Origin: an uncultured virus (IMG/VR IMGVR_UViG_3300007759_000001)
Taxonomy: Duplodnaviria > Heunggongvirae > Uroviricota > Caudoviricetes
Direction: 5' to 3' (one strand)
DNA: 64,000 nt
IMG/VR virus record: IMGVR_UViG_3300007759_000001
Shown here piece by piece: positions 1 to 48,004 of this stretch (the first letter of the stretch is position 1; every line of letters starts with the position of its first letter). The translations under genes and the position numbers were made by a program. The notes under the pieces are model-generated. The model worked only from the letters and a program-made list of their open reading frames with translations. It made no database searches and was not told the DNA's origin.

Positions 1-227
1 CATCAACACAGTTGGAAGCGCTTTCTTCCGTTGTCATGACATGGGGCGATGTCGGTGTCCCACCCGGTAGTGGACATAAGCCCTCTTTCGATGAGCCACC
101 AGAGATACGCATCTTTCGTACCATCGACGCTTATCTCAGCGAATTCTGCGAAGTCCTAAACATTGATACAGATTTATTTGATGACGCCGAAACAGGCGAC
201 GGTCCCGGCGAAGAAGTTATCCATTAA
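1..227 (+). CDS. 3' part of a hypothetical acidic protein, probably starting left of the window
   Basis: Frame is open back to the window edge; stop overlaps the stop of the convergent giant gene. Confidence 0.45.
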   Translation, partial: STQLEALSSVVMTWGDVGVPPGSGHKPSFDEPPEIRIFRTIDAYLSEFCEVLNIDTDLFDDAETGDGPGEEVIH

Positions 228-6711: not shown

Positions 6712-6985
6712 CGCTATTCATCCACTTTTTTTTATACTCGTTGAGTATCTTTCTATCATCTGGATTATCTGTGTCTCCTAGTTTATGCGACCTCATGATG
6801 CCCGTAGAACCATGAATCAAAGCAGCCAATCTTTTTTCTTCATCAACGTCATAACTATCCATGGCTTCAACTAGTTGTGCTGCCATTCGTTCATTCCCGC
6901 CAATATCAAAATGATTATCGTTGTTCTCAACAATAATCGCAGGCTTAACTGAATGTTGGTAAGGAGTGATTAAAAATTTAGCCAT
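6704..6985 (-). CDS. Hypothetical protein (93 aa), coupled to the stop of the 2846-aa gene
   Basis: ATG at 6985 overlaps upstream TAA. Confidence 0.6.
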   Translation of the reverse strand: MAKFLITPYQHSVKPAIIVENNDNHFDIGGNERMAAQLVEAMDSYDVDEEKRLAALIHGSTGIMRSHKLGDTDNPDDRKILNEYKKKWMNSDG

Positions 6986-12900: not shown

Positions 12901-15525
12901 ACTTGGACGACGCCTCCCGAAGTCAACCCTCGCCCCCTCCTCACGGTCACGACGACGGATGGCCTCCTCGTTCCGCTCCCCAAATTCAGTAAGTCTCTCC
13001 TGCATCCTCCGACGGCGTTCATCACGACGCTGCGTCCTGCGTTCACGACGCGGAGAACGCCGATCAAGTTCTTCTCGTTCAGCACGCTGCCTACCGCGCA
13101 TATCCCGCCGTGACCTATCGAACTCGTCACGGTCGCGTCGTTGACTAGTCAGTTCCCTAGCCCGTTCAGTATGTCTCCCTGCGGCAGCCTCATCTCGCTC
13201 AGCGCCACGCTCCATTCGCGCTGTCCGACGCTCACGGACACCAGCCCCCCTCTGTCTAATCCTTGCAAGTGCCCGCTGCCTGCGTGCCTTTCGTGCCTGA
13301 CGCCGCAATTCGACCTCAGTGAAGTCGGCTGTAGCATCCAACTCCTGATCCCTGCGACGAATGCCCTGTTCGCGTCGTCCACCAAAACGTTCAGACGCTC
13401 CCGCCAAACGACGCTTCAGAGGATCAAAGCGGGAAGTCCGAAGCGGAGAACGCTGGTTTTCACCCGGCTTGTAATCAACATTCTTGCCATTTCCATCAAC
13501 AAGTTGAACAGAACCAGCCAGTTTCCTAGCGCCAGCCTTCAAACCACGGAAAATAGTTCCCGACGGTCGCTCCCAGATAGTTCCTTCCTGAACCAGACCA
13601 TCACCATCAGCATCCCGTGCCCGTGGGTTGTAAGGAACAACCTTGGGAATCCGGCGGGCAAAGCGAGACAGACGCACGCCACGCATCCGACGGCGACCAA
13701 ACACCTTGACTGCCATATCTTCATCAAGTTGGGCTAATACAAACCGGGCTGCCTTTAGATCAACTAGCGAATCTCTGCTCATACCATCGGTGTCGCTAAT
13801 CCGAAGGTCTGCCAAACTCGGCTTTCCGAACTGATCGGAAAGATCCGGCCTCAACGCCAGATTCTTTTTCTCCACAGAAAACACTGCATACTGCTCACGG
13901 TTGAACCGTTGCTCACGCAGAGTTTTAGTTCCAGATTCTTTTGCAATGTTGTAAGGCTTGACGCCCGCCAGACGACGAGGAGCGCGAGGTGACAGAAACA
14001 TGTGATGAATCCATCTTGAAACCACACGCTTCTGACCATCACTAGAAGTAACGACAACGCGCTCGTTCGGCTTTTTGACACCGTCAAACTTTGGTTTGAT
14101 TTCCACAAACTCTGGAAATTCTTGAACGAACTTTTCAACATGGGCAAACGGATTGATGATGATGTCGGGATCCCTAGAAATAGACGCCCAGCGGGTACGC
14201 ATCTTTGCTCCAACCCCAACCGGAATGTCCGTCTTGCGTTCCACCCGGACAGAACCCTGACCGAACGCATACTCAATAGCCTCAACACCCTTGCTCAATA
14301 GGCGTATCTCGTCTCCTGCGATTGCACCCTTCCCGATCTTTGAAGTCACATACACGGCACCCTTGATCGCGTCATGATCCTTCATCTTCACTAGTTCTTC
14401 TGGAGTCAGCGTGGGTTCATACACCACACCGTCACGCCGAACCAAACGAGTGGTTCCAACATTCTTGCCAACAAAATCAACAACATCATTTACAACAGAC
14501 TCGCGGCGGGCAGGGCTACCTGCACGATTAGGACGAATCGCCGCTTCGCGTACAACGGCGAAAGGATCGCCCTTAGGCTTCTTGACAACCACATCACGAA
14601 CCACATCTGGAACGTCCTCTGCCGTAATGCTTTCAAAACGACGAGTCATCTTGGAAACATCACCTGATGTGACCGCTCCCGGCCCCTTTGCCGGAACGTC
14701 AAACACCAAACCACCACAGTTGCTCAACTTGGGATCAGTGAACCTGCCACCGTTGATGTACCCCGTGGGACAACGCAGCGCCCCACCGCCAATAGACGGC
14801 CTAGCGCCACCACCACCAATGCCACCACTCGGTCCAATACCTCCACCGCCGGGGAACAAAGCCCCCCACAGGGCGGAGCGGATCGGACTGCGATATTTGC
14901 TCATATCGCCCGGTGTAAAATAAGAAGCGATACTTGAAAGCGTCCGCCCAAGGCGACCGTGACCACGGCCCTTTACCTCAATTGGTTGTTTAGTCCAGTC
15001 GAACGAACCCGGCATTGGAACCGATTGCAGACCCTGCACAAACCGTGCCGCCTTATAGGCGACAGCATTTTGATCCCCATCAATAGGACGAGTCGTGATA
15101 CCTCCGTCCATGCGGGCCACTCGGCGGTACACCCTCCAACTTGCTATCTCCACCCCGTCTTCGCTTTTGCCACGACGGCGACGACGCTTGCCGGGGATAG
15201 CGCGACGGGCCACCCGGCCTGCTGCCCGCGCCGCCCCACCACCACCGTGATGGTTGCCTTCATTCGGCCACTTGCCAGTTGTTTCATGGTGCAACCACGC
15301 GCACAACGGTTGGAGCGGATACAACTCTGGATGATTCGCAAGAATGACAATGCACCGCCGAAAACCACCCGGCTTCCGCATAATCGGTCGCCAGAATTTG
15401 AGCAGGTGTTCCAACCCACCTCTACGCGGTCCATGACCACGCAAAATATCGCCGGTAATTCTCTCCTGCGGGATTACGTCGATTAAGTCCTGCGGCCCTT
15501 TGACCTCAAGAGGCTTATCACTCAT
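6985..15525 (-). CDS. Giant multidomain probable virion protein (2846 aa): Arg-rich repeats, SH3/KOW-like segment, GNAT-like domain, C-terminal PI3/4-kinase/HipA-like domain
   Basis: Motifs VRGKGFAT...A..G..W...GF (GNAT-like); FIIKS...NEIIG...GLGDRHGGNLLV...IDF (atypical kinase); ARADF and RGMPS repeats. Confidence 0.8.
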   Translation of the reverse strand: MSDKPLEVKGPQDLIDVIPQERITGDILRGHGPRRGGLEHLLKFWRPIMRKPGGFRRCIVILANHPELYPLQPLCAWLHHETTGKWPNEGNHHGGGGAARAAGRVARRAIPGKRRRRRGKSEDGVEIASWRVYRRVARMDGGITTRPIDGDQNAVAYKAARFVQGLQSVPMPGSFDWTKQPIEVKGRGHGRLGRTLSSIASYFTPGDMSKYRSPIRSALWGALFPGGGGIGPSGGIGGGGARPSIGGGALRCPTGYINGGRFTDPKLSNCGGLVFDVPAKGPGAVTSGDVSKMTRRFESITAEDVPDVVRDVVVKKPKGDPFAVVREAAIRPNRAGSPARRESVVNDVVDFVGKNVGTTRLVRRDGVVYEPTLTPEELVKMKDHDAIKGAVYVTSKIGKGAIAGDEIRLLSKGVEAIEYAFGQGSVRVERKTDIPVGVGAKMRTRWASISRDPDIIINPFAHVEKFVQEFPEFVEIKPKFDGVKKPNERVVVTSSDGQKRVVSRWIHHMFLSPRAPRRLAGVKPYNIAKESGTKTLREQRFNREQYAVFSVEKKNLALRPDLSDQFGKPSLADLRISDTDGMSRDSLVDLKAARFVLAQLDEDMAVKVFGRRRMRGVRLSRFARRIPKVVPYNPRARDADGDGLVQEGTIWERPSGTIFRGLKAGARKLAGSVQLVDGNGKNVDYKPGENQRSPLRTSRFDPLKRRLAGASERFGGRREQGIRRRDQELDATADFTEVELRRQARKARRQRALARIRQRGAGVRERRTARMERGAERDEAAAGRHTERARELTSQRRDRDEFDRSRRDMRGRQRAEREELDRRSPRRERRTQRRDERRRRMQERLTEFGERNEEAIRRRDREEGARVDFGRRRPSIAERAAAAAERFRERREEGIRAEDRRRGARADFGKLDRERESRRRDRRGPTRRSERTPGEQRGRAAGAADRLRERNEEAIRRRDREQGARADFGILEREREARRQRRAERGAQRGRGLAEATERFRERNEEAIRRRDRREGARADFQILERERKARADARVKRELDRQAVRDQRRERIRRRVETFGERQEAAIRLRDREEGARADFTEIELRREMRRQRVRDFARRVREINADRTPETREVGRKAARARNDRSAGVSRRFDEIRVRQESLRGMPSSDRYYEPDDDPEFQRDFERTLERFYVDMQDYTLVDLGDALSNAGNRQLEEAFDWEDPEVDARLETPIRDFPEDWKATIRGIVENSFYDDPEALMGQRRSRRNMFGQTLQSLGSDKEPVISWTARIEEIDALITELNDVFFDKYWDLDADGYNITSGVYMDSRFGDRISQGGGNAVGRKYDELIAEREALFDKRWMLTDEEEARIYEISGEIEALYAETDWMGVSDVHRERFEAIRARLDELDRPIVLDRGMIQGMPSVNEMVRSEEIFERAKERRERLRDIRRRVKAGEEVDPAEIFNEPVRGVPVVNEWQESLEDRISGISAQERVKARRERLEAIRERRIAEAKARDADFDPDDIDPDEWHDEGSPAGGIFDLDQQIRGMPSVEEMVRAEEMHERAMARRERLRDIRKRKEAEAREVRDAGVSPALVGQPIQNLVPTPNDSDLPGEDVLIRYRQGDEVKIGNRWGTVVRSDPGGGGRGPFYVVQFEDGHSESFPMYRVTGDSDLRRKRRAEGVERHFYPDGAIPVEDFTSQGLIDEMAMIKERWDGADVIPVEDMIRFDNLQIAWHEKNPGKDLGSVRNSRGYPVDVESVEYGDGTRADFGSSGVGGDLNSQMVRGMPSVERILSAPPDRFDPEIDIDPDTYHDDPLRPGRDERIVRSLSAAVDKWLGEDYFDAFEDHELEKAMSDAILLIRAKNGGDLKFADFIEPSANWPEGFLHAELGAEEMFTREGIEKGLLAGVYDGDIPEGVLLELQNDHGWNRDPVERVSAIVEAMLFHREDMDNPEVFQENLTAMLDNLSVWDGMMNRYELNKLNNRDRDREPWHGRQRKILVKLTQRFLSDRKSENERRRKALTAPLEDASMERRFDPVPGEGEVDVPEDEQTFLQKIVDRIWNKRLKVVKKEYERRGKPPETMPRSFEELGINVDEILARGSTTPEEDEIIKKWVISAFSLGDANQFAGTDSFMWRLRNQWGNDDDDIPNITIQQTGGQITASFNASIEFKAPRDIEDRNGQTVKGGEWVASGNTDRVITINRSRGGNPPKIHVKNSEMFVDTYSTYGVRGKGFATFYNSNTWIHVNQLGGPDSYIGVTAADDGKVVWGIQGFNDPTVVKTAMSNILKELIAYETDRKPGLIRNDQMHEDLKRLYNIHSANENDSPVTLQMIHHVLRGGGKHPWEDIAHTDDRPSGISTDVLSRDKDIDAIEKDLSKKINKDDPLEAGMLKNAYGNWWASNGLFGGGDLGVGSDDPIGKIMAEAADEIRGGPPDADVDTPDSPRRRDRAAERRARGRGEEGPAEVPLYRGLRRGRSNLTIGTSDELGRSGLVSTSMEDSDIKTPAAAAEHIRNGGNISDVPRELILEAALKNSSGDEKDESKLFRLVTVDEDGNPGANVSGGTFGTSYVFLKRDPDGRSDSEPGTEQGFIIKSPDYAFETPGSDGGGIANVSQYNEIIGRQISQLLGDPTGGVMVDGEDPRGNPYIVMEFNNVTADIGLEIPLAHMSFEERNEPEMLKSRLRALLIGYSMGLGDRHGGNLLVGQSEYTGGTNQTGVTNIDFQRAWGATTDLRGYIDGHMAEGSGFPGFGLLSELRQAVREGKLSESELGGVVQEVHDQMRNIKDVHLERIFGDLPEVHALGGRDMSTMGAARRGPDDVETHATNVSNHLEMTLATLSGGEMLVMELLENDEDEEPWYGEGQRTF

Positions 15526-17424: not shown

Positions 17425-18771
17425 CTATTGGGAAGGCTCGTTAACTAACCAGTCGATATGTAGCAAAGCCTTACCCATGATTCGGGCAACGCTCTTTTTT
17501 TCATTTTCGCCTTCAGGCATCAAGACCTCTACGGTCTTGTAACCCAAGGCAACAGATTCTGGGGTTGGACATTGAACTGGAACCCCAACTTTCACCAATG
17601 CCTCTACGACATCAGCAATCTCTTCTTCCGTAGCGCACTCAAACGGAATGGACTCCTCGTAATTTGAATAGGTGCCCGGAATCAAAACCTTTTGTTCAAC
17701 AGGTTCTTTCCGCTCCAACGGACCCTCAGATGGCATTACCTCGTTACAAACACTCTGAAGAATTTCAATAGCGTTAGAGATTTTTTGAATGTTCCTAGAA
17801 GAAATCTTGCGACCAGCCTTGACCTCAACATCTTCCTCTAAGGACTTTTCTTCGTGGGTGCAGCCGCACGATCCGTCTACCTTTTCGCAGCCACATGCCG
17901 TTTCCTCCTTTTCGCAGCCACATGCCGTTTCCTCCAGCACGCGAACGAAAGTTTCCAAAACCGCAGCCTTGGGCTGAGCGAACAGAAACTCGGAACTGTC
18001 CTTGTTGTAGTGGTAACTCACAACCCACGCTTCGTCACCCTTAGTGACGGCAGCCTGCTCCGCGTCAAAGTCCCACAACTTGACATCTTCGTCATCGAAG
18101 GATCCCTTAACCGCCGTCTCAAGCAATGACGCAAATACGGTTACCTCTTCATCGACTTCATCGACCTTTTCTTCAACCTCATCCGCTGCCAAATTCTTGA
18201 CGGTACACAACTCCCCCTCTGTGCCACACTCGGACGCCTCGTTGTCCTTCACGGACAGCGTGCCGGTCAACTGGTTTGCTCCATGGAGGACGGGCGAAAC
18301 CTCGTACAGTTCCACCTCTTTCAGAACGTTTGCCTGATGAGTGGAGTCATAATCGGCATCAATTGTCTTGTAGCCGATGCTCCACTCCTGCTCATCGCCA
18401 AAAAAGGCAACATTGGCAAAGGCTTCCTTGCCACGCTGGGAGTTCAAATTGAACTGAACCCGTGCATACAGGCCACCTACTCCAGCATCGAACATCTTCT
18501 TCGGAAGCCGACTGTCCTTGGGCTTGACCTCTTCAATCGTCAACACTTTGCCGATTGGCTCATTCCAGTTATGTCCCCAAACCACACGCGGCTTGCGACG
18601 TTTCAATGAGCCACTGAACGCCCCCGGAATAATGATGTCGCCCACGGAATCCTTGTTCCCAATCGCGGCGACAAAACATTCAACAATGCCCTGTGCTTTG
18701 TCAATATTGACCTGACCAGCACGGGTTTTAAACTGAATATCTGTATCTTCTATAACAGTCAATGTAGGCAT
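17425..18771 (-). CDS. HK97-family prohead (maturation) protease with acidic C-terminal extension
   Basis: GNKDSVGDIIIPGAF...WGHNWNEPIGK...WSIGY...LKEVELYEVSPV. Confidence 0.93.
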   Translation of the reverse strand: MPTLTVIEDTDIQFKTRAGQVNIDKAQGIVECFVAAIGNKDSVGDIIIPGAFSGSLKRRKPRVVWGHNWNEPIGKVLTIEEVKPKDSRLPKKMFDAGVGGLYARVQFNLNSQRGKEAFANVAFFGDEQEWSIGYKTIDADYDSTHQANVLKEVELYEVSPVLHGANQLTGTLSVKDNEASECGTEGELCTVKNLAADEVEEKVDEVDEEVTVFASLLETAVKGSFDDEDVKLWDFDAEQAAVTKGDEAWVVSYHYNKDSSEFLFAQPKAAVLETFVRVLEETACGCEKEETACGCEKVDGSCGCTHEEKSLEEDVEVKAGRKISSRNIQKISNAIEILQSVCNEVMPSEGPLERKEPVEQKVLIPGTYSNYEESIPFECATEEEIADVVEALVKVGVPVQCPTPESVALGYKTVEVLMPEGENEKKSVARIMGKALLHIDWLVNEPSQ

Positions 18772-27009: not shown

Positions 27010-27341
27010 GAACATCCCCCATAGCCCTAGCCGACGTTGAAGACAACATCATCAGGCTGGTTGAAGACTTAGAGGAACACACCGAAGCCTTTGAAGTTCT
27101 TGCTGTGGATCACTCCAAAAAAGATGCTCGCTACAAGTCTTCTTGGGCTAAGGAATATCTCGCCGCAAACGGCTCCATCAAGGAGCGTGAGTCATGGGCC
27201 GATTACAAACTCTCCGATGAGAACTATGAAGTCAAGGTGGCAGATGCTCTCCTCAAAGCCAAGAAGGAGAAACTAAACTCTATTCGCACAGCGCTTGATT
27301 CTCTCAGGACGCTTGCGGCAAACGTGAGGGCGCAAACATGA
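27006..27341 (+). CDS. Hypothetical coiled-coil protein
   Basis: GTGA overlap with upstream gene; helical. Confidence 0.7.
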   Translation: MRTSPIALADVEDNIIRLVEDLEEHTEAFEVLAVDHSKKDARYKSSWAKEYLAANGSIKERESWADYKLSDENYEVKVADALLKAKKEKLNSIRTALDSLRTLAANVRAQT

Positions 27342-28084
27342 ACCATGGCGTAAGTCCAGACTTGGAAAATCTTCTTGTTCCGATAGAACAATTACAAACG
27401 CTTCCCAACAACCCACGCAAAGGAAACATTTCTTCTATTGCGGCTTCGTATAAAAAGTTCGGACAAGTCAAACCCATCGTGGCCGTGGATAACGAGGACG
27501 GCACGGGCACCGTCATTGCCGGGAATCACCAATTGGCGGCAGCCAAGCAATTGGGGTGGACCCACATGGCGGTGCTGTACGTTCCGTTCGACCACGACAA
27601 GGCCATAGCGTTTGCCTTGGCCGACAACCGAACCTCAGAGTTGGGAGAAGATAATCAGGAACTTCTCCACGACATGCTGATTTCGGTGGTGGAAGACATG
27701 CCGGATTTCTTTGAGGAACTTGGCTGGGATGATTTTGAGATTGCCACCATTTCAACCCCGGCTGCTGGAGCAGAATCTGCCGTGGAATCCAACGACGGAT
27801 GGACCGCTCCGACCCTGATCGCTCCGCCTCCAACGGAAGCAGACGAAGAGACGATGAGGTCTTTAGTGACCCAAGGCGCTACAGCCACCGGTTCTGCTGG
27901 GGCCAAAACAGTGGTTCAATACACTTTGGTATTCAACGACGCTGAACAGCAGGCGGTGTGGTATTCGTTCCTAAGATATTTGAAGGCAAACCCAGCCTAT
28001 GCAGGTTTAGCCACAACCTCAGAGCAAGTGACAGCCTTTTTAAATCGTCACATCAGTCCTGAAGGTTCGACATCAACTGAATAG
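27338..28084 (+). CDS. ParB/Srx-like N-terminal domain protein
   Basis: L...PNNPRKG...FGQVKPIV...VIAGNH.L.AAK.LGW...ADNRTSEL. Confidence 0.88.
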   Translation: MNHGVSPDLENLLVPIEQLQTLPNNPRKGNISSIAASYKKFGQVKPIVAVDNEDGTGTVIAGNHQLAAAKQLGWTHMAVLYVPFDHDKAIAFALADNRTSELGEDNQELLHDMLISVVEDMPDFFEELGWDDFEIATISTPAAGAESAVESNDGWTAPTLIAPPPTEADEETMRSLVTQGATATGSAGAKTVVQYTLVFNDAEQQAVWYSFLRYLKANPAYAGLATTSEQVTAFLNRHISPEGSTSTE

Positions 28085-29732: not shown

Positions 29733-30887
29733 ATGCCGCGTAAGCGTCTATTCCTAGATATGAACGTAGTCGAAGCAGCCCGTGAACGGCTCCGACACGT
29801 TTACGATACTTTCGACACGGTTTGTGTCCAGTTCAGCGGAGGCAAAGATTCTTCTGCCGTCCTACTTCTTGCGAAAGAAATCCATGAAGAACGAGGACTT
29901 GGACCCGTCAAGACCATCTTCCGTGATGAAGAAATGGTCAGTCCTGCCGTTATCCGTTACATGGAATGGGTCAAAGATCTTCCGTGGGTTGACATGGAGT
30001 GGTACTGCCTGCCGATGGGGCAGGAAATTTGGGTGCTTGGTCGCAGAGAGTACGTTCTGCTCTGGTCAAAACAGCGACAAGAAGAAGGACGCTTGGTTCG
30101 GGAGATACCCCCGTGGGCTATCACCGCCCAAGATTTCGGACTAGATAATAGCGTGGTGGTTCCGCAGCCTGTTGATTATTACACGATGCAAGGGAAGGAA
30201 GGTCGAACCGCCTTCCTCACGGGTATTCGGGCAAACGAATCCATGATTCGATATCGGTCCGTTGTCCAAAAACTCCATGAGAACTACATCAATCGTCCAT
30301 ACCGGCTGAGCAAGGCCATTCCGTTGCGACTCATCAAACCTATTTACGATTGGATTACAGACGATGTTCTCAAGTATGTATCCGTGGACAACAACTTCCC
30401 CTATTGCGAGTATTACGACTACGCAGCAATGTCGGGAGCAAACACACGGGTGGGAATTCCGTTACACTCTGTTGCTGCTCGCAGGCTCAATGATGTAGTT
30501 ACAACGGAGCCAGAGTTTTATGACGCTCTAGTGACGGCATTTCCACACATAGATGCCCAGCGTCGGCTGTGGAAGGATTTCAATATCGAATCCCTGATTG
30601 CTTCTTACGCTCAGGAAAGTTGGGACGGCGTTCGTCGTTGCATCAACGAGAACATGCTTTCACCGGGAAAACACCAAGACGCTATGAAATTCGTAGCAGA
30701 ATTTCGCAAAAAGCGTAATAACGATCCCTATGGCTATCCGATTGATCACTTGATTCGGATACTGCTGCTAAATGAATTTCGCCATACAGCCCCATCACCG
30801 GTCGGTCCGAAAACGAAAGCCCACAGGATGCGCGTCGCTGCCTTACAGGAAGCCGACGACTTAGATAAGGTAGATGATCTTTTATGA
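29733..30887 (+). CDS. PAPS-reductase-family (PP-loop) protein, IbrA-like
   Basis: AARERL, VQFSGGKDS, GIRANES..RY, PIYDW...DV. Confidence 0.88.
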   Translation: MPRKRLFLDMNVVEAARERLRHVYDTFDTVCVQFSGGKDSSAVLLLAKEIHEERGLGPVKTIFRDEEMVSPAVIRYMEWVKDLPWVDMEWYCLPMGQEIWVLGRREYVLLWSKQRQEEGRLVREIPPWAITAQDFGLDNSVVVPQPVDYYTMQGKEGRTAFLTGIRANESMIRYRSVVQKLHENYINRPYRLSKAIPLRLIKPIYDWITDDVLKYVSVDNNFPYCEYYDYAAMSGANTRVGIPLHSVAARRLNDVVTTEPEFYDALVTAFPHIDAQRRLWKDFNIESLIASYAQESWDGVRRCINENMLSPGKHQDAMKFVAEFRKKRNNDPYGYPIDHLIRILLLNEFRHTAPSPVGPKTKAHRMRVAALQEADDLDKVDDLL

Positions 30888-31396
30888 ACTTGGAACTTCT
30901 CAAAACGGAAAACCTCAAGGTTCCCGACTGGAGAACCACTCATATTCTAAAACCCAACCTGATTGGGCTGATGAAGTCTATAGAAGAATACGGAATGATC
31001 AATCCAATTCTCACTATGACAGATGGCACCATCATCGACGGTTTCGCCCGCTGGGTCGCCGCACAGTCGCTGGGTCTTAAAAAGATTCCCGTTCAAAGGC
31101 GCGATTGTGGAAAGACAGAAGCAATGATGCTTCACATCCAACTCAACAGGGCCAGAGGAGAGATTGTCCCACATCGTCTCAGTAAAACGATTCGTCTATT
31201 GAGCGTAGCCATGGACGAACAGGTCATCTTGAATTCATTCAATATGAAAATAGATGAACTGGATGTGCTGCTGGATGGATCCCTCGTCAAGAAGAGGAAA
31301 GTTTCAGAGCATTCTTACAGCAAGGCGTGGATCCCTATCGAATCCACGGCCAGTGAAGATTTCAGTATAGAGCGACCGCCTACGCCAGACGCATAA
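30884..31396 (+). CDS. ParB-like protein, IbrB-like
   Basis: SIEEYG.INPI...IIDGFAR...LNRARG; ATGA-coupled to the IbrA-like gene. Confidence 0.85.
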   Translation: MNLELLKTENLKVPDWRTTHILKPNLIGLMKSIEEYGMINPILTMTDGTIIDGFARWVAAQSLGLKKIPVQRRDCGKTEAMMLHIQLNRARGEIVPHRLSKTIRLLSVAMDEQVILNSFNMKIDELDVLLDGSLVKKRKVSEHSYSKAWIPIESTASEDFSIERPPTPDA

Positions 31397-40599: not shown

Positions 40600-41324
40600 G
40601 TTACGATCCCAACGCAGTAGATACCGACGCCGATTATCCGCTGCCCGCTCCCCATCCAGCGAAGTTCACCCCTAGACATCTGAACGCAATCACCGAAATC
40701 CTTGAAGACCTCTATGGACCCGGTAATGACGTTTCAATTTTGGATCCTTTCGCCGGTATAGGCACAATCCACGAACTGCCATTCACCACACGGGGCATCG
40801 AACTTGAACCAGAATGGGCAAACCAGCATCAACTAACAGACGTAGGAAGCGCCCTCAACACCAAATTCCCAAATGGGTGTTTCGACGCAGTCATAACCTC
40901 GCCCTGCTTCGGTAACAGGATGGCCGACCACCACGACGCTAAAGACGACAGCAAACGACACACCTACAGGCATTATTTGGGCAGACCTCTCACAGATGGA
41001 AGTTCTGCTGTCATGCAATGGGGCGAGGACTACCAACATTTCCACACAGAAGCATGGTCGGAAGCAAAGCGTGTCCTAAAACCCGGTGGAATTTTGATCA
41101 TCAACATCAAAGACCACGTTCGGGGTGGAGTAATTCAACATGTAACAAAATGGCATAGCGATACCTGTGTCCGTGTCGGATTCAAGCAGGTCGATACGAT
41201 CATTATTCCTGTTACGGGTTTAACACATGGAGAGAACTTCAATCAACGAATACCTCATGAGTCATTGCTAGTCTTTGAGAAACCATTGCTAAGAGCAGAA
41301 GCATCTGATATCATGGCGGGTTGA
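40596..41324 (+). CDS. DNA amino-methyltransferase-like protein (N4/N6 type)
   Basis: HPAKF, ILDPFAGIGT, variant motif IV TSPCF, RVLKPGG. Confidence 0.85.
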   Translation: MSYDPNAVDTDADYPLPAPHPAKFTPRHLNAITEILEDLYGPGNDVSILDPFAGIGTIHELPFTTRGIELEPEWANQHQLTDVGSALNTKFPNGCFDAVITSPCFGNRMADHHDAKDDSKRHTYRHYLGRPLTDGSSAVMQWGEDYQHFHTEAWSEAKRVLKPGGILIINIKDHVRGGVIQHVTKWHSDTCVRVGFKQVDTIIIPVTGLTHGENFNQRIPHESLLVFEKPLLRAEASDIMAG

Positions 41325-41731
41325 AGAGAGGAGTATTAGTGAGTAGAAACGCTGTTCGGGCTAAAATCCGACATAAGAATAAAGACATTCACTTGGGTTA
41401 TTATCAAACTCAAGCCCAAGCGACCGCAGCGAAGGCTGGAGCGCACGCGGCTTTGGACAAGTGGGAAGAACTCAACCCTCCTAAGCCCCCGCCGAAGCGG
41501 AAGTTGCCTAGCGTTGAAACGTTAAAGCACTTTATTTCTCAAGGTGTTTACGATCCTGTGATCGAACAACTCAAAGAGATCATTGTGGCTAGGTCTAATC
41601 TTGTTAAGCGAATGGAACAGGCCAGCAAGGCTGCAACTTGGTTTGGCAAAGGTGTAGATAGAACCATCGCAGAAGAAGATTTCAATGATATCCACGACCG
41701 ATACGGTAAGGATGGATATCTAATAGGTTAG
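41321..41731 (+). CDS. Hypothetical protein with AP2-like N-terminal DNA-binding motif
   Basis: RAKIRH....IHLGYY.T...A..A. Confidence 0.6.
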   Translation: MKRGVLVSRNAVRAKIRHKNKDIHLGYYQTQAQATAAKAGAHAALDKWEELNPPKPPPKRKLPSVETLKHFISQGVYDPVIEQLKEIIVARSNLVKRMEQASKAATWFGKGVDRTIAEEDFNDIHDRYGKDGYLIG

Positions 41732-42466
41732 ACACGGCAGTCTGGGTCAAGCAAGGACAGGCCCGGTTCGGCATGTTAAGGCACGGATAGCGCGGCAGGC
41801 TAGGCACGGTTCGGCGTGTTTAGGCAAGGTCTGGTTGGGTTCGGCAGCGCAGGCTAGGACAGGCTCGTCACGGCGCGGCCCGGTTCGGCATGGCGCGGTC
41901 AGGTTTAGCACGGCAGGCGCGGTCAGGCGGGCTAGGCGCGGCGCGGCAGAGTTGGGTGGGGTCTGGTTAGGCACGGCAGGCTCGGTGTGGTTGGGATTGG
42001 TTAGGCTGGTCAAGGTATGGTTGGGCATCGCAGGCATGGATCGGTGAGGCTGGGCGCAGCGCGGTGAGGCTGGGAGCGGCGAGGTAAGGCAGGCACGGTT
42101 GGGCTTGGCGCGTTCCGGAAGCGTAAGGCACGGCAAGGCAGGATCGGTTAGGTTTGGCCTCGTTGCGTTTGGTGAGGCAGGGTTTGGTCCGGCACGGCAG
42201 GCAGGGATCGGCAAGGCTCGGCATGGAGCGGTACGGCATGGCGGGGTTGGGCAGGCATGGCGTGACACGGTCGGGCTAGGTGCGGCGCGGTCTGGTGCGG
42301 CGCGGTCAGGCATGGAGAGGCGAGGCGACGCTAGGAACGGTGCGGTAGGGTAGGATCGGTTAGGCGTGGCCGGGATCGGTGAGGCGTGGCAGGAAAGGCA
42401 TGGCATGTTACGGCAGGGCGAGGAGAGGAGAGGCGTGGCAGGCGTGGTTAGGCAGCGTGGCTGCTA
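41731..42466 (+). repeat. Non-coding GG(Y)NN pentamer array of about 11-12 units separated by GGCA/CGCA; candidate guide-RNA array
   Basis: 5-nt periodicity, e.g. GGCTA GGCAC GGTTC GGCGT GTTTA GGCAA GGTCT GGTTG GGTTC GGCAG CGCA; leader GACAC-GGCA-GTC; terminal hairpin GCAGC-GTG-GCTGC. Confidence 0.9.
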
Positions 42467-42563
42467 TATGACACCCCTCAAGGCAAAGACCATTGGTGGC
42501 CGTCACGATCCTGTTGGGAAGATACAGTGTGATGGCCAAGCCACATTTTTATAGGAGGGCACC

Positions 42564-43262
42564 ATGAGTGTTGGTTGCACCATCTGTGGGGAGATTTGTT
42601 ATTGCGAGCCCGATGCTGCTATTGGCGTAGGGCCAGAGGCGTGGGACGACTTCGTGGAAATGGTTGAATCTGACCGGCCACGGTTCCTGCCCGGCTTGAA
42701 ACGGCTGTTCGACCGGGTGGCCCCGTGGCTGATTGGCAATGTCAGCGAAGCGGGTAGTACATCTCAGGATGTGGATGTACAGGCTGCACCTTGTGGAACA
42801 GACGAAAAGTTACAGGCTGCACCTTGTAGTTGCGGCAAGTACCGCTTCCCAGCGTTCGAGTTGGAGACATTGGACTGGTCGTGGGGGCCAATCACGGACG
42901 ACGACGGCGTGCATGAGGCCGACAGGTGCCTGTTCGGGTTGCGGGAGCCGTCCGTTCAGGAGTCTGGAACCCGTCCATCTGATATCGCAGTAGAGATTGT
43001 TGGGCGATCATTCGACACCATCGAAGTTGCGCCAGAAAATGTCGTGCAATGGGATGAGCAGATGTTCACCCTTCAGGTGAACTGGGATGACTGGTGCAGA
43101 ATCGAACGAGGCTTAGACGATGCCTTCGATCACACCCTCAACACATCTGTGGACATGGAGCGTACCGAAAACCACGAACTGGCGGAGTGGTTTACGACTG
43201 AGGCTGATCTGTGTCAGGAGTTGAAGCGCAGGCTGCTCCTTGATGTGGAGGCCCAGCAATGA
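42564..43262 (+). CDS. Hypothetical Cys-containing protein
   Basis: AGGAGG RBS; internal duplicated QAAPC. Confidence 0.65.
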   Translation: MSVGCTICGEICYCEPDAAIGVGPEAWDDFVEMVESDRPRFLPGLKRLFDRVAPWLIGNVSEAGSTSQDVDVQAAPCGTDEKLQAAPCSCGKYRFPAFELETLDWSWGPITDDDGVHEADRCLFGLREPSVQESGTRPSDIAVEIVGRSFDTIEVAPENVVQWDEQMFTLQVNWDDWCRIERGLDDAFDHTLNTSVDMERTENHELAEWFTTEADLCQELKRRLLLDVEAQQ

Positions 43263-43398
43263 TCGTTAGTGCATTACTTATCGACCTACAAAAAAACTGG
43301 AGTTTCTTTGCACCTCCTGTCAGAAATGAAACAACCGTTGCCTACATGACGGCTAAGACACGGTTGCACATTGCTGCCGCTAGCGGAAGGGATATGAA

Positions 43399-43575
43399 AT
43401 GACCGATGAGCCGTTCCCGTGGGAGGCTGTGTATCGGGCACTCGTCAACCGTGTCTGCGAACTAGCCGACCAATACCCGGTGTCAGCCAACCGCCTCCAC
43501 CCCGAACTCGCTACACTAGCGAGAATCCACGGCGAAATCTGCGACCGTGAACCCAACGAAAGGAACACCCCGTGA
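43399..43575 (+). CDS. Hypothetical protein (58 aa)
   Basis: MTDEPFPWEAVY... read manually, purine-rich RBS. Confidence 0.5.
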   Translation: MTDEPFPWEAVYRALVNRVCELADQYPVSANRLHPELATLARIHGEICDREPNERNTP

Positions 43576-43623
43576 GCATCAAAGCACGCCCACAAATACG
43601 CCTAGCAGCACCCTAGAGGAGAT

Positions 43624-43809
43624 ATGACCGACAAAGCCATGGTCAAGTTGGTGGCCATGTACCGCCAACACCACAACAACATTACTGAGTTAGACAGTGA
43701 AGATATTGAGTCCGATGCCATCATGTGGATGATGGAAGAGGTTTGGGCTCTGCGTGCAGAGATCAGAGAGTTACGAATAGCAACATGGGCATTCCAGCCC
43801 AAAACTTAG
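43624..43809 (+). CDS. Hypothetical protein (61 aa)
   Basis: GAGGAG RBS. Confidence 0.65.
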   Translation: MTDKAMVKLVAMYRQHHNNITELDSEDIESDAIMWMMEEVWALRAEIRELRIATWAFQPKT

Positions 43810-43828
43810 ACCTTAGAAGGAGGTCATC

Positions 43829-43984
43829 ATGCCATTACCAGCAGCAGCGTGTGCTAACTATCGGCCCGAGGGTGTCGGTGCTTGTTCCGGGGATGTGAAA
43901 TTCCATGTCCGATACCGTGACGGGCGACACTATCCCCGATGCGAGATCCATGCAAAGGCATGGTATCGCAGGCTAGGCTTGTAA
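43829..43984 (+). CDS. Small Cys/His protein (51 aa)
   Basis: AAGGAGGT RBS; MPLPAAACANY...RCEIH. Confidence 0.6.
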   Translation: MPLPAAACANYRPEGVGACSGDVKFHVRYRDGRHYPRCEIHAKAWYRRLGL

Positions 43985-44006: not shown

Positions 44007-44035
44007 TTGACACGAACCCAAAGGTTCGATACACT
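44007..44035 (+). promoter_or_regulatory. Sigma70-type promoter of the RAMP-like operon with palindromic spacer
   Basis: TTGACA-17 bp-TACACT; spacer contains CGAACC-CAAA-GGTTCG. Confidence 0.75.
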
Positions 44036-44100
44036 ACCCCTACTGGCACGGAAATCCTTCCGGTCAGTTACCGTAAATACACGAACAGAGGATAACTATT

Positions 44101-44736
44101 ATGGCTACGTCAGTAGCAACAGAGTTGACCAAGATCGTTCCTACGGTTGTTGAGATCGAAGTTGAGGGTCTTACGCCCTTGATCTGCAATAACTTTTCGG
44201 AAAAGATCAAAGAGCAGATCAGGCAGGCACAGGCTGGCAAGAAAAAGTTGCAGTTGCCGAAGAACCCTGCGGAACTGTTTGAGGGTGCGAAGTACCTGCT
44301 CCCCGACGGCTCCTACGGCTTCCCGGCTGCGGGTTTCAAGGGCGCTTGTGTAAGCGCCGGTCGTTTCTTCAACGGCGTCACCATGACGGCATTGCGTCAG
44401 GGCATCTTTGTCCACGGCGAGGGTCCGGACCAGTTGGTTCGCCTCACCGGGTTCACCGATGAACCGATCATGCGCGAGGACGCCGTCCGCAACGCTACCG
44501 GGGTCGTTGACCTTCGGTACCGTCCCATGTTTGAGAAGTGGGGCGCAACCATCAAGGTTGAGTTCATTCCTTCGATCCTGTCGTTGGACAGCGTCATCTC
44601 CATCGTGGATGCAGCCGGTATCGGCGGTATCGGTGAGTGGCGTCCCACGGCTCCGAAGAGCAACGGCGACTACGGGCGTTTCCAGACCGTAGACGGTGGT
44701 GTGAAGGTTCTCACCGAAGAGGAAGCGGCTGAGTAA
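44101..44736 (+). CDS. Stand-alone RAMP/Cas7-like RNA-binding protein (Vipr-like)
   Basis: RAMP hallmarks: N-terminal strand VEIEVEGLTPL, FPAAGFKGAC (cf. IPGSSLKGA), C-terminal Gly loop AGIGGIGEWRP...GDYGRF. Confidence 0.82.
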   Translation: MATSVATELTKIVPTVVEIEVEGLTPLICNNFSEKIKEQIRQAQAGKKKLQLPKNPAELFEGAKYLLPDGSYGFPAAGFKGACVSAGRFFNGVTMTALRQGIFVHGEGPDQLVRLTGFTDEPIMREDAVRNATGVVDLRYRPMFEKWGATIKVEFIPSILSLDSVISIVDAAGIGGIGEWRPTAPKSNGDYGRFQTVDGGVKVLTEEEAAE

Positions 44737-45212
44737 TGCGCGAAGTAACGGACACAACAGAAGAGGTTGTTGTTCCTCGCAAGACAAACGTTGACCACAT
44801 CAACGATATCATCACAGACCTTCAGTCTGCTGGTGTCACCCCGGAGGAACTGGTTGAGGTCGCACGCGACCCGGAGCATCCGCTCCACGACCGGTTCACA
44901 TGGGATGTTGATGAGGCTGCCTACCAGTACAACATCATTGAGGCTCGCAAGATTCTCCGTGAAGTCCTGCTGATTCAGGCAGGCGGATCAGAAACGGTCC
45001 GTGCGTTCGTGCCCATTGAGGTCGTGACGGGTCGCAAGGAGTACGTTCCCACGAACGTAGCCTTGAAGAACGCTGTCGGTCGGGCACAGTTGTTCAACCG
45101 GTACCGTTCCACCTTGCGTGGATACCGGGCGGCTCTCTCCGCCTTTGAAGAGTTCACACCAGTCCTCGCAGCAATTGAGGATCTGCCAGAACTCCCCAAG
45201 GACGAAGAGTAA
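44736..45212 (+). CDS. Partner protein translationally coupled to the RAMP-like gene
   Basis: TAATG overlap; TPEELVEVARDPEHPLHDRFTWD..AA..Y...AR.I motif. Confidence 0.8.
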   Translation: MREVTDTTEEVVVPRKTNVDHINDIITDLQSAGVTPEELVEVARDPEHPLHDRFTWDVDEAAYQYNIIEARKILREVLLIQAGGSETVRAFVPIEVVTGRKEYVPTNVALKNAVGRAQLFNRYRSTLRGYRAALSAFEEFTPVLAAIEDLPELPKDEE

Positions 45213-45281
45213 CAACAGAATAATGGGGAATGTGGGGAGAGGGTGGTTTGCTGAGAGCGCCACCCTCTCCCTTCCCCCGTT

Positions 45282-45368
45282 GACACGGCAGTCGGGGCAT
45301 CGATGGGCGAGGTAAGGCAAGGCCGGGTCAGGCATGGCAGGCACGGTTGGGTAGCATAGTCGCTACCC
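45282..45368 (+). ncRNA. Single-unit GG(Y)NN mini-array directly downstream of the RAMP operon
   Basis: GACAC GGCA GTCGG GGCAT CGATG GGCGA GGTAA GGCAA GGCCG GGTCA GGCAT GGCA GGCAC GGTTG then hairpin GGGTAGC-ATAGTC-GCTACCC; preceded by strong hairpin 45224-45278. Confidence 0.85.
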
Positions 45369-45399
45369 GGATAAAACTATCTGAAAGAGGGGAACCATT

Positions 45400-45648
45400 A
45401 TGGGTTTTACACCAAGCGGTGGACCTAAGAACCGGTTCAAGAAAGCCAACAAACAAGCAAGCCGCGCCCAAAAACGGGCCGAATTCATAAAAGAAGCAGA
45501 AGCCAAGAACGCCGAAGGCCAATACTTGTGCGCCGACTGCCGACTGTGGTACACAATCGAAGACTTCAAATATAAGCACAACGGCGAAACCAAAGTCGCC
45601 CGACGATGCGAATCCTGCCGACGGGACAGAAGAAGAGGAAGAAGATGA
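45400..45648 (+). CDS. Basic zinc-finger protein
   Basis: LCADC...RRCESCR; GAGGGG RBS. Confidence 0.7.
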   Translation: MGFTPSGGPKNRFKKANKQASRAQKRAEFIKEAEAKNAEGQYLCADCRLWYTIEDFKYKHNGETKVARRCESCRRDRRRGRR

Positions 45649-46601
45649 AACTCAAAGCATTCGTGCTACTAGCAATAATCTCAACCATCGTCATGGCAGC
45701 CCCAGTAAGCGCCCATCACGATCAGGTCTACGCGCCATGCGACCCCGAAGACACCCGACCGCTAAACGAACAGGTCTGGTATCAGGACTACCAAAGCGGA
45801 ACCGCTCTCCGATACGACGACCCGTGGTGGGGAGAAAAGCCGGGATCAGGTGGCTACACAAACTGGGAACACCAATGCCGCCTCGGCCAAACCGGCGTAT
45901 GGCAAGCAGCCCCAATCCCGCCAACGGTTCACCCACCCGACTACGAAGTCGAAACCCGGCAAACAAAAACGCCATGCATCAGAAAACTAGAAACAACAGT
46001 TGACCGCCTGATCGCTGAAGGCTCCATCGCGTCCACAAACATCACCGTCACCGACCACGGCGTATTCCTCTACGGCGGCACTTCACCCATACCACTCGTA
46101 GAAACAGGCATAGTGACCGAATGGGCGTTGGGTCACGACGGATACGGGCGGCACTATCAGAACACCTACTGGGAGCATTTGTTCGACGGCGTGTCGAACT
46201 GGAACTTCTGGAAACTCCAATGCACCCCAAGCATCCCCACAACAACTACAACCAGCACCCCACCCACGACAACTACACAGCCTGCGGTGGAGGATCCGGC
46301 CCCGGAACCGACCCCCTCTATTCCGGAAGAGCCAGATCCTTCACCGCAACCCCCACCCGAACCACAACTAGAACCCGAAGAAGCCCCAACACCCGAACCG
46401 CCAGCCAACATAGACGACTACGACCTATTCGACGCCGAATGGGACGGATACCCCTTTGAACAAACAATCCTCCTACTAGAAGAACGATACCCACCCGGCA
46501 CACCCAACAAAAATCACTTCCGCCTATCCGTAGCCGTGGAATTCCTACGCAACGGAGGCATGATCAAAGGACTAGACAACCTATGGGACAGCCCCGCATA
46601 A
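45645..46601 (+). CDS. Secreted/surface protein with Thr- and Pro/Glu-rich linker
   Basis: Signal peptide MKLKAFVLLAIISTIVMAAPVSA; ATGA overlap. Confidence 0.75.
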   Translation: MKLKAFVLLAIISTIVMAAPVSAHHDQVYAPCDPEDTRPLNEQVWYQDYQSGTALRYDDPWWGEKPGSGGYTNWEHQCRLGQTGVWQAAPIPPTVHPPDYEVETRQTKTPCIRKLETTVDRLIAEGSIASTNITVTDHGVFLYGGTSPIPLVETGIVTEWALGHDGYGRHYQNTYWEHLFDGVSNWNFWKLQCTPSIPTTTTTSTPPTTTTQPAVEDPAPEPTPSIPEEPDPSPQPPPEPQLEPEEAPTPEPPANIDDYDLFDAEWDGYPFEQTILLLEERYPPGTPNKNHFRLSVAVEFLRNGGMIKGLDNLWDSPA

Positions 46602-47220: not shown

Positions 47221-47375
47221 ATGTTACTCGTCGGTAACTTGAGATGTTACTCGTCGGTAACTTGAGATTTCGCTGGTTATGGCGAGCGATTTTTTGGTCG
47301 AACAAGTGTTCGGTTACCGGTCGGTAACTTGTCGGTTGGACTTGGTTCGCTTCCCGTAAGTTACTCGTCGGTAAC
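47221..47375. repeat. Four GTTAC-N6-GTAAC palindromes (two in a perfect 23-bp tandem) with an interposed LexA-like box
   Basis: Copies at 47223, 47246, 47313, 47360; TCGAAC-AAGT-GTTCGG at 47298. Confidence 0.85.
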
Positions 47376-47722: not shown

Positions 47723-48004
47723 ATGACATACGAACCGCTTATCTCATACGAGACACTACACATGTTGGTACTCGCCATGCTCATGACTTGCTTTGCTATC
47801 CCTATCGGTAGTTTGCTTTGGTCATGGATCGTGAGGCTCACCAAACTAGACCACGACAAGATCATCGTTCCCTCACACGACTTCGGTCCTGAGGAAGATC
47901 ACATCCGAATCATCGACACCGATAGGCAGCCCTACGACTGGGCGAAGGAGCGAATCATCGACACCGATAGGCAGCCCTACGACTGGGCGAAGGAGATTGA
48001 CTAA
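47723..48004 (+). CDS. Membrane protein with perfect 45-bp internal duplication
   Basis: Hydrophobic segment; RIIDTDRQPYDWAKE x2 (47906-47995); ATG just after TGCTATACT (leaderless-like). Confidence 0.6.
   Translation: MTYEPLISYETLHMLVLAMLMTCFAIPIGSLLWSWIVRLTKLDHDKIIVPSHDFGPEEDHIRIIDTDRQPYDWAKERIIDTDRQPYDWAKEID

What the first reader, a model, noticed from the sequence alone, without database searches (positions are those of the whole stretch)
45224..45368. Single-unit mini-array behind the RAMP operon, separate from the main array
Seen: after a strong hairpin, one nine-pentamer unit (NN = GG AT TG GA AA AA CG CA AT) reuses the exact 12-nt leader GACACGGCAGTC of the long array 3.5 kb upstream and ends likewise in GGCA + two pentamers + hairpin. 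The shared ends show both loci are one RNA family and define a minimal RNA. Inference: a co-transcribed dedicated guide, possibly autoregulatory or for a fixed target. I could not find a convincing target by eye.
Basis: partly seen in the sequence, partly recalled or inferred. Interest (0 to 1): 0.78.

Follow-up and report, generated by a model that had tools for sequence, protein, structure and literature searches.

The report
Single-guide VIPR RNA array in phage
This short repeat tract in a marine phage is a one-guide RNA gene of a VIPR system, a CRISPR-related RNA-guided DNA silencer first described in 2026, so it is a real but already known kind of element whose target remains unproven.

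Summary
GG at period 5 occurs on the + strand at only two places in the window, 41726-42461 and 45276-45371. Both tracts start with GACACGGCAGTC and both end in GGCA, two pentamers and a hairpin.

The element is a VIPR locus, a class published in 2026 preprints.
- The gene at 44101-44736 is a Vipr protein. Its only PDB sequence relative is SUSP1 Vipr (profile E 9e-9), and its model has a Cas7/Csm3 fold.
- The gene at 44736-45212 is a conserved accessory partner.
- The long tract is a "staggered" guide array. The short tract is a one-guide array at the position relatives use most. A relative has four guides there.

No self-target exists in the window under any skip rule. Exact matches in public viral contigs equal those of a reversed control, 2 and 2.

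One hit, a tail-fibre gene on an unrelated phage contig, also has near-matches to three long-array guides. It is a candidate target only.

An RNA-library contig from a relative spans the accessory gene, the hairpin and the guide. This is a new member of a known kind.

The parts
41731..41742 (+). Start motif of the long array (GACACGGCA + GTC). It overlaps the stop codon of the upstream gene 41321-41731.
   Evidence: The same core GACACGGCA starts both arrays of L004, and GACATGGCA starts the Gordonia phage UmaThurman array.
41740..42437 (+). Long 'staggered' vrRNA array: about 13 guide segments of GGYNN units, each ended by a one-base-short unit (mostly GGCA).
   Evidence: There are 14 segments, and 12 of 13 phase shifts are -1. 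The closing short unit is GGCA in 9 of the 14 guide ends listed (13 long-array segments plus the solitary guide).
42437..42465 (+). 3' cap of the long array: GGCA GGCGT GGTTA plus the small hairpin GGCAGC-GTG-GCTGCT.
   Evidence: The hairpin alone is not better than shuffles (z -0.45).
44007..44035 (+). Sigma-70-like promoter candidate (TTGACA-17-TACACT, 10 of 12) ahead of vipr.
   Evidence: The TTGACA context is also present in L004. RNA-library contigs of relatives begin at 44021 and 44051, which says nothing firm about a start.
44101..44736 (+). vipr gene: a 211-aa Cas7-like RAMP protein.
   Evidence: PHROG 4652. SUSP1 Vipr 36pp_D is the only PDB sequence hit: E 0.013 with the single sequence, 9e-9 with a 46-sequence profile. 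AlphaFold2 gives pLDDT 91.8. Foldseek's top matches are Csm3/Cas7 chains, E 1.4e-6.
44736..45212 (+). vap-like accessory gene, 158 aa, with its start overlapping the vipr stop.
   Evidence: PHROG 15946. A homolog follows or neighbours vipr in 7 of 9 relatives' loci. The family has 4022 representatives. The fold is winged-helix-like at best Z 6.0, which is inconclusive.
45222..45281 (+). Strong hairpin between the vap-like gene and the short array, with no U-run after it.
   Evidence: -40.1 kcal/mol, z -5.9. The stem GGGAGAGGG/CCCTCTCCC is conserved in L004. One RNA-library contig of a relative bridges it.
45282..45293 (+). Start motif of the short array (GACACGGCA + GTC).
45291..45335 (+). The single guide: nine GGYNN units with NN = GG AT TG GA AA AA CG CA AT.
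   Evidence: The same array is called in L003, which is 99.3% alike over 6.1 kb.
45336..45349 (+). Junction unit GGCA plus two pentamers GGCAC GGTTG. This is identical to the internal junction at 42088-42103.
45348..45369 (+). 3' cap hairpin GGGTAGC-ATAGTC-GCTACCC.
   Evidence: z -2.3. It is conserved at the end of L004's four-guide array.

Best explanation
The tract 45282-45369 is a one-guide vrRNA array of a phage VIPR system.

Anatomy shown here:
- A Cas7-like Vipr gene (44101-44736) and a conserved accessory gene (44736-45212) sit behind a promoter-like site.
- A strong hairpin, a start motif, nine GGYNN units, a one-base-short junction unit, two more pentamers and a cap hairpin follow.
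- A 13-segment array of the same grammar lies 3.5 kb upstream.

Mechanism inferred from the published SUSP1 and P. fulva work (read):
- The RNA is made either by read-through from the vipr promoter or from an unrecognised promoter.
- One Vipr protomer binds each 5-nt unit and hides GGY.
- The nine NN pairs are then presented to read double-stranded DNA as NNxNNx..., a footprint of 26 bp.
- The filament silences transcription of a competing mobile element.

My own inference: the 4-nt GGCA unit breaks the 5-nt register, so it ends one filament or guide and starts the next. The terminal hairpin would play the capping role of the SUSP1 pseudoknot.

The target is not established.
For: Protein:
- SUSP1 Vipr is the only PDB sequence relative.
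- In that alignment SUSP1 R138, W178 and R179, which the structure paper names as GGY-reading residues, align to identical R141, W180 and R181. D177 aligns to E179. R141 and R181 are invariant and W180 is nearly invariant in 46 homologs.
- The model is confident and its best structural matches are Csm3/Cas7 chains.

RNA grammar:
- GGYNN period 5 occurs at only two places in the window.
- Segments are 5n-1 nt long. This is the '1-nt overlapping' staggered layout of the preprint's fig. S18 legend.

Comparative:
- vipr, the vap-like gene and a pentamer array co-occur in phages of Mycobacterium and Gordonia and in metagenomic relatives.
- In 5 of 9 relatives' loci an array lies just after the vap-like gene.
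- In L004 (Vipr 86% identical) the same hairpin, start motif and cap hairpin enclose four guides instead of one. NN content is almost wholly different, while the flanks are 77-81% alike.

Persistence:
- The module is 99.3% identical in L003, where no other array lies in the 7.8 kb held.

Expression hint:
- RNA-library contigs of relatives cover vipr, the vap-like gene and the guide.
Against: - No RNA ends, strand or Vipr binding are shown for this locus. Contigs from RNA libraries may contain DNA.
- The preprint did not confirm staggered arrays by small-RNA sequencing. It says only ribozyme arrays and single-vrRNA systems were confirmed.
- Two of the nine units have a broken GGY slot (GTC, CGA).
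- No sigma-70-like -10 element follows the TTGACA in the start motif.
- No target was found above chance.
- The cap is a plain hairpin, not the pseudoknot of the studied clade.
- The accessory protein's fold match is weak.
Confidence: 0.85

Rival explanations
1. The short tract is a decaying remnant of a once longer downstream array. It was left by deletion between junction repeats and no longer makes a working guide.
For: L004 has four guides at this position. Two of the nine units have imperfect GGY slots. No target was found above chance. DNA contigs of a related population show array-to-array joints and indels around the arrays.
Against: The start motif, junction, cap hairpin and upstream hairpin are all intact and conserved. 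The tract is kept at 99.3% in L003, where it is the only array in the DNA held. Imperfect slots are also common in the long array. Systems with a single vrRNA are published and were confirmed experimentally.
Confidence: 0.1
2. It is an autoregulatory or self-directed guide that binds the phage's own genome, for example to time gene expression.
For: It sits immediately behind the vipr and vap-like genes and is separate from the main array.
Against: The best match in the 64-kb window is 13 of 18 under the 1-nt-skip rule, which 96% of shuffled guides reach. Skips of 0, 2 and 3 nt give p of 0.35 or more. There is no match with up to 3 mismatches in the contigs of L003 and L004 or in the nearest record G001. 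The preprint also found no self-targets. The window is not the whole genome, so a site outside it is not excluded.
Confidence: 0.03
3. The pentamer tracts are not RNA guides. They would be a DNA-level element (an R-loop-prone G-rich origin or a protein-binding repeat) or coding sequence, as annotated in actinophage records.
For: The tracts are G-rich on the coding-sense strand. A 219-aa ORF is open on the minus strand across the long array. Equivalent tracts are annotated as hypothetical proteins in UmaThurman gp40 and BobaPhett gp51.
Against: There is no period-3 signal, and the 5n-1 phase shifts break any reading frame. The + frames contain stops. The tracts are tightly linked to a Vipr homolog in every isolate record examined. 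Published small-RNA sequencing and cryo-EM show that such tracts are Vipr-bound RNAs in other clades.
Confidence: 0.02

Closest known systems
VIPR systems with 'staggered' vrRNA arrays (bioRxiv 10.64898/2026.04.26.720920, Results and fig. S18 legend; read)
   Same: There is a Cas7-like Vipr gene, an adjacent accessory gene and GGY/NN pentamer guides. Guides abut with a 1-nt overlap, which is the 5n-1 segment length found here. The system is phage-borne.
   Different: The preprint gives only a diagram legend for this layout and no RNA data. Here a long staggered array and a one-guide array coexist in one locus. Both are framed by a start motif (GACAYGGCA) and a plain cap hairpin. I did not find these two features in the text I read; the figures and data files were not visible to me.
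Type II VIPR of Escherichia phage SUSP1 (Vipr, vap1, four vrRNAs; PDB 36pp)
   Same: Guide genes lie on both sides of the protein genes (one vrRNA upstream, three downstream). The GGY-reading residues R138, W178 and R179 are conserved. Guides have 9-16 repeats.
   Different: Sequence similarity is only at profile level (E 9e-9 over about 70 residues). SUSP1 vrRNAs are separate RNAs of about 100 nt, each with its own pseudoknot tail. Here internal guides have no tail, and only the array end carries a hairpin.
Solo vrRNAs of satellites and VIPR-null phages (bioRxiv 10.64898/2026.10.15.759431; sections 8 and 17 read)
   Same: They are one or two guides standing alone.
   Different: Those sit in elements that lack vipr and hijack another element's protein. 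This guide sits directly behind its own vipr gene. It does not match vipr or the vrRNA regions of the relatives I hold.
CRISPR class 1 crRNA with a Cas7 backbone
   Same: It has a RAMP filament on a guide RNA, with periodic bases flipped out by the thumb domain.
   Different: Guide letters are non-contiguous, 2 in every 5. There is no CRISPR repeat-spacer array, and no cas1/cas2 or other cas genes were seen among the ORFs scanned.

Membership tests
VIPR system | Vipr protein: a small RAMP (RRM core, G-loop, thumb) related to Cas7 | tested here: met
   The only PDB sequence hit is SUSP1 Vipr, E 0.013 with the single sequence and 9e-9 with the profile. The model has pLDDT 91.8. Foldseek finds 117 matches at E <= 0.001, led by Csm3/Cas7 chains with TM about 0.5. 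The G-loop GIGEWRP aligns to SUSP1 GVGDWRP.
VIPR system | vrRNA made of tandem GGY/NN pentamers (4 or more units, typically 9-16) next to vipr | tested here: met
   Nine units lie at 45291-45335, 79 nt after the vap-like gene's stop. The period-5 GG signal is confined to the two tracts.
VIPR system | GGY kept while NN is hypervariable between relatives | tested here: met
   Window versus L004: the flanks are 77-81% alike, yet only 1 of the window's 13 guides compared has a clear homolog in L004 (L6/U11, 14 of 16 NN). The solitary guide's best match is weak, 11 of 18 NN over the whole overlap with D3.
VIPR system | Conserved structured 3' tail capping the guide | tested here: inconclusive
   A hairpin is conserved between the window and L004. 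It is not the SUSP1-type pseudoknot. With only two distinct sequences, no covariation test was possible.
VIPR system | Adjacent vipr-accessory (vap) gene with a DNA-interaction fold | tested here: inconclusive
   A conserved partner gene is present in 7 of 9 relatives' loci. Its fold gives no Foldseek match at E <= 0.001, and the best VIA Z of 6.0 is among winged-helix domains. I could not tell which of vap1-6 it is.
VIPR system | Carried by a virus or provirus | tested here: met
   Portal, terminase, protease and replication PHROGs are found in the window.
VIPR system | vrRNA expressed and bound by Vipr | not testable with these tools
   The only data are RNA-library contigs of relatives 90-95% alike that cover 44021-45354 and 45286-45676. 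They carry no information on ends, strand or binding.
VIPR system | Guide matches a DNA target by the 1-nt-skip (NNx) rule | tested here: inconclusive
   There is no self-match. IMG/VR gives 2 exact hits against 2 for the reversed control. Metagenome contigs give 19 hits falling into 15 unrelated sequences. One candidate contig, G002, has extra near-matches.
Staggered vrRNA array (fig. S18 layout) | Neighbouring guides share one base, so each segment is 5n-1 nt | tested here: met
   12 of 13 phase shifts in the long array are -1, and segment lengths include 44, 49, 59 and 104 (= 5n-1) plus near values. The solitary guide is closed by the same GGCA|GGC junction.

The most novel reading that the evidence does not exclude
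The vipr and vap-like genes plus the one-guide array form a self-sufficient minimal module of the staggered VIPR type. It would be bounded by clade-wide punctuation: the start motif GACAYGGCA, the junction GGCAG, and a plain hairpin cap in place of a pseudoknot. Its single retained guide would be aimed at the tail-fibre gene of a competing phage (contig G002). That contig matches the guide 18 of 18, and three long-array guides also hit it at 15/18, 16/20 and 17/22. On this reading the solitary guide is the core weapon and the long array is a movable add-on, since the long array is absent at this place in the 99.3%-identical L003.
Probability: 0.2. Interest if true: 0.5.

Novelty: new member of a known kind. 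Interest (0 to 1): 0.3.

Why it matters
VIPR is a class less than a year old, and its staggered arrays are so far only drawn, not measured. This locus offers a natural one-guide version with clear boundaries: start motif, nine units, junction and cap hairpin. That makes it a convenient construct for mapping how staggered guides are started, ended and capped.

It also shows that guide number at one position changes quickly between close relatives, from 1 to 4. Finally, the same grammar reaches from a marine phage to cultured Mycobacterium and Gordonia phages. In those phages the arrays are currently annotated as hypothetical proteins, and bench work on them is straightforward.

Tried and rejected
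Early ideas, dropped once the VIPR lead was tested:
- I first considered a TRAP-like ring-protein binding RNA, a CsrA-type sponge, G-quadruplex or R-loop DNA, and a coding repeat.

Target searches that found nothing usable:
- Self-target scans of the window used skips of 0-3 nt for 13 guides. None was convincing; the lowest p was 0.05 for L9 at skip 0.
- The exact NNx pattern of long-array guide L3 (24 letters) gave 0 hits in IMG/VR. L004 guide D3 also gave 0 hits.
- The exact NNx pattern of the solitary guide gave 2 IMG/VR hits, equal to the reversed control. Its 19 metagenome hits are 15 mutually unrelated sequences plus identical duplicates.
- In G002 the skip base falls on codon position 1, not on the wobble position that the preprints report.
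- Scanning the relatives' VIPR loci with the guide gave 13 of 18, p 0.95.

Data that were not available or not informative:
- No whole genome is held for this window. The nearest record, G001, does not contain the locus.
- A genome-contig search with the alignment was not possible. The single-protein search gave 3 distant loci.
- Rfam gave only sub-threshold microRNA-like hits on the hairpin.
- No sigma-70-like promoter lies between the vap-like gene and the array.
- RNA-library contigs did not cover 41300-43945. This shows nothing either way.
- The vap-like profile's PDB hits to TALE repeats have no individually significant stretch, so I do not count them.

Full report
**What is in the sequence.**
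The window is a phage. Portal, large terminase, head protease, helicase, primase and ParB-like PHROG families are all found. Public runs that hold it are labelled marine or seawater metagenomes.

On the + strand, GG recurs with period 5 at only two places, 41726-42461 and 45276-45371.

A phase-tracking parse splits the long tract into 14 segments. The register slips by -1 at 12 of 13 boundaries, giving segment lengths such as 44, 49, 59 and 104 nt. The slip is a four-base unit. It is GGCA in 9 of the 14 guide ends listed, and otherwise CGCA, GGCG or GGTA.

The short tract reads as follows:

| Coordinates | Element |
|---|---|
| 45222-45281 | hairpin, -40.1 kcal/mol, z -5.9 |
| 45282-45290 | GACACGGCA |
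| 45291-45335 | nine GGYNN units |
| 45336-45339 | GGCA |
| 45340-45349 | GGCAC GGTTG |
| 45348-45369 | hairpin |

The 12-mer GACACGGCAGTC occurs only at the heads of the two tracts. The motif GGCAGGCRYGGTTRGG occurs only inside the tracts: at both ends, at one internal junction, and at a fourth, one-mismatch site in the long array.

**How the identification was reached.**
My first ideas were a TRAP-like periodic RNA-binding protein or R-loop-prone DNA.

A distant blastn search showed the same kind of tract in 14 Mycobacterium and 2 Gordonia phage records, where it is annotated as hypothetical protein.

A look-up in this scan's earlier notes then pointed to VIPR systems and to 2026 preprints. 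I treated this as a lead and tested it.

I read the Results, several Methods sections and the figure legends of bioRxiv 10.64898/2026.04.26.720920. I also read:
- part 1 of 2 of the Results of 10.64898/2026.04.26.720927;
- the outline and sections 8 and 17 of 10.64898/2026.10.15.759431;
- passages of 10.64898/2026.10.21.760802.

Figures and data files were not visible to me.

**The protein genes.**
*vipr.* The 211-aa product of 44101-44736 has one PDB sequence relative, 'SUSP1 Vipr protein' 36pp. The match is E 0.013 with the single sequence and E 9e-9 with a profile of 46 homologs. The next hit is at 0.81.

In that alignment SUSP1 R138, W178 and R179 align to identical residues, and D177 aligns to E. 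The structure paper names these four residues as the readers of G1, G2 and Y3.

The AlphaFold2 model is confident, with pLDDT 91.8. Its best structural matches are Csm3/Cas7 subunits of type III and type VII complexes and of Cas7-11. The Foldseek library predates the Vipr entries.

*The accessory gene.* The next gene (44736-45212, 158 aa) overlaps the vipr stop. It has homologs beside vipr in BobaPhett (37% identity), in L004 (75%) and in five further loci. It belongs to a family of 4022 representative sequences. Its model (pLDDT 87) resembles winged-helix domains only weakly, with Z at most 6.0, so its class is open.

A TTGACA-17-TACACT site lies at 44007-44035. The 'RAMP operon' is thus one RAMP gene plus one accessory gene.

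**Comparative anatomy.**
Across nine loci with a Vipr relative, the layouts are as follows:

| Locus | Layout |
|---|---|
| BobaPhett (L002) | array before vipr |
| UmaThurman (L001) | array between vipr and the vap-like gene |
| L004 | arrays before vipr and after the vap-like gene |
| L005, L008, L040 | array after the vap-like gene |
| L007 | array after the vap-like gene, with a GTT-type unit |
| L006 | no array found |
| L010 | no array found; only a Vipr fragment |

The short tract therefore occupies the position used most often among these relatives.

In L004 (Vipr 86% identical) that position holds four guides. They are framed by the same upstream hairpin stem, the same CCCCGTTGACACGGCA start and the same GGGTAGCATAGTCGCTAC hairpin.

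The start core GACAYGGCA is present in 5 of the 9 arrays I inspected. These are both window arrays, both L004 arrays and UmaThurman. L005 and L008 have related forms. It resembles the internal junction GGCAY-GGCA.

The pentamer GGCAG marks guide boundaries even in the divergent L007 and L040.

The last unit before a junction is biased: its first N is A in 20 of 29 guides. The truly free letters of the solitary guide may therefore number 16 rather than 18.

NN content turns over fast. Only one long-array guide has a clear homolog in L004 (14 of 16). The solitary guide shares 11 of 14 letters with the 3' part of L004 guide D3. That sub-count is mine, from the units listed.

In L003 the module from 42637 onward is 99.3% identical, but the DNA upstream is different and carries no array in the 3.2 kb held.

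DNA contigs of a related population show variants that lack 42460-43957, as L004 does. They also show joints between the arrays.

**Expression.**
Three metatranscriptome runs from two studies hold contigs 90-95% similar to the locus. One 1346-nt contig spans 44021-45354: vipr, the vap-like gene, the hairpin (with small deletions in its loop) and the guide, up to the start of the cap hairpin. Another contig covers 45286-45676.

Contigs show neither ends nor strand, and DNA carry-over is possible.

**Target.**
*Self-targeting.* Under the published 1-nt-skip rule the guide reads GGxATxTGxGAxAAxAAxCGxCAxAT. Its best match in the window is 13 of 18, no better than shuffled guides. Other skip lengths and the other 12 guides also give nothing convincing. 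Nothing is found in the contigs of L003, L004 or G001, or in the relatives' loci. Autoregulation is therefore unsupported, although the window is not the whole genome.

*Public collections.* Exact-pattern scans gave 2 IMG/VR hits, and a reversed control pattern also gave 2. Metagenome contigs gave 19 hits, which fall into 15 unrelated sequences.

*The G002 candidate.* One hit recurs as an identical sequence in three records. It lies in a tail-fibre gene (PHROGs 38058 and 22284) of an unrelated 24.9-kb phage contig, G002.

On that contig three of the 12 long-array guides also score unusually well:

| Guide | Score | p, shuffled guides | p, Markov surrogates |
|---|---|---|---|
| L8 | 15/18 | 0.007 | 0.025 |
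| L1 | 16/20 | 0.017 | 0.035 |
| L7 | 17/22 | 0.03 | 0.0125 |

In contrast, 0 of 48 guide-by-decoy tests on four equal-sized decoys reached p <= 0.05.

Two things weigh against it. The choice of G002 was post hoc. The skip bases of the solitary guide fall on codon position 1 rather than on the wobble position. I rate it a candidate at roughly one in four.

**Verdict.**
The kind is already published, and this scan has met it before on other DNA.

What this locus adds:
- a natural minimal form of the staggered type;
- start and junction punctuation shared across the clade;
- rapid change in guide number between close relatives;
- a testable but unproven target.

Noticed in passing
L001 3001-3330 (Gordonia phage UmaThurman gp40); L002 2985-3250 (Mycobacterium phage BobaPhett gp51): In cultured actinophage records the GGY/NN guide arrays are annotated as hypothetical protein genes. 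The neighbouring Vipr homologs (gp39, gp52) and vap-like genes are also 'hypothetical'. 33 phage records carry a Vipr homolog: 27 Mycobacterium, 5 Gordonia and 1 cyanophage.
   Followed up: partly
window 42460-43957: The block between the long array and the vipr promoter holds a Cys-rich 232-aa gene (42564-43262) and several small ORFs. It is absent in L004 and in contigs of a related population, and it has a different N-terminal part in L003. It looks like a mobile insert inside the VIPR locus.
   Followed up: partly
L007 2860-3300: A distant relative (Vipr 33% identical) has arrays with a GTT-type unit instead of GGY. It keeps the GGCAG punctuation between guides.
   Followed up: partly
window 44736-45212, residues 17-44 of the product: The accessory protein family has a G-x-LTPE-x-VV-x-x-A motif. 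Its profile gives summed hits to TALE repeat proteins in the PDB, but no single stretch is significant. This is probably a chance helix-turn likeness.
   Followed up: no
window 42244-42344: One segment of the long array runs for 20 units (104 nt) with no junction. It could be two guides fused, or one unusually long guide. Under the NNx rule it scored 26 of 40 (p 0.005) somewhere in the relatives' loci. I did not look at where.
   Followed up: no
window 224-6490 and 6985-15525, minus strand: Two giant ORFs of 2088 and 2846 aa have no PHROG match at E <= 0.001.
   Followed up: no
window 29733-31396: A PAPS-reductase-like gene (PHROG 2302) is followed by a ParB-like gene, and another ParB-like gene lies at 27338-28084. 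From memory, this resembles the IbrA/IbrB-type pairing.
   Followed up: no
window 47906-47995; 47221-47268; 17880-17935: There are perfect tandem duplications of 45, 23 and 27 bp.
   Followed up: no
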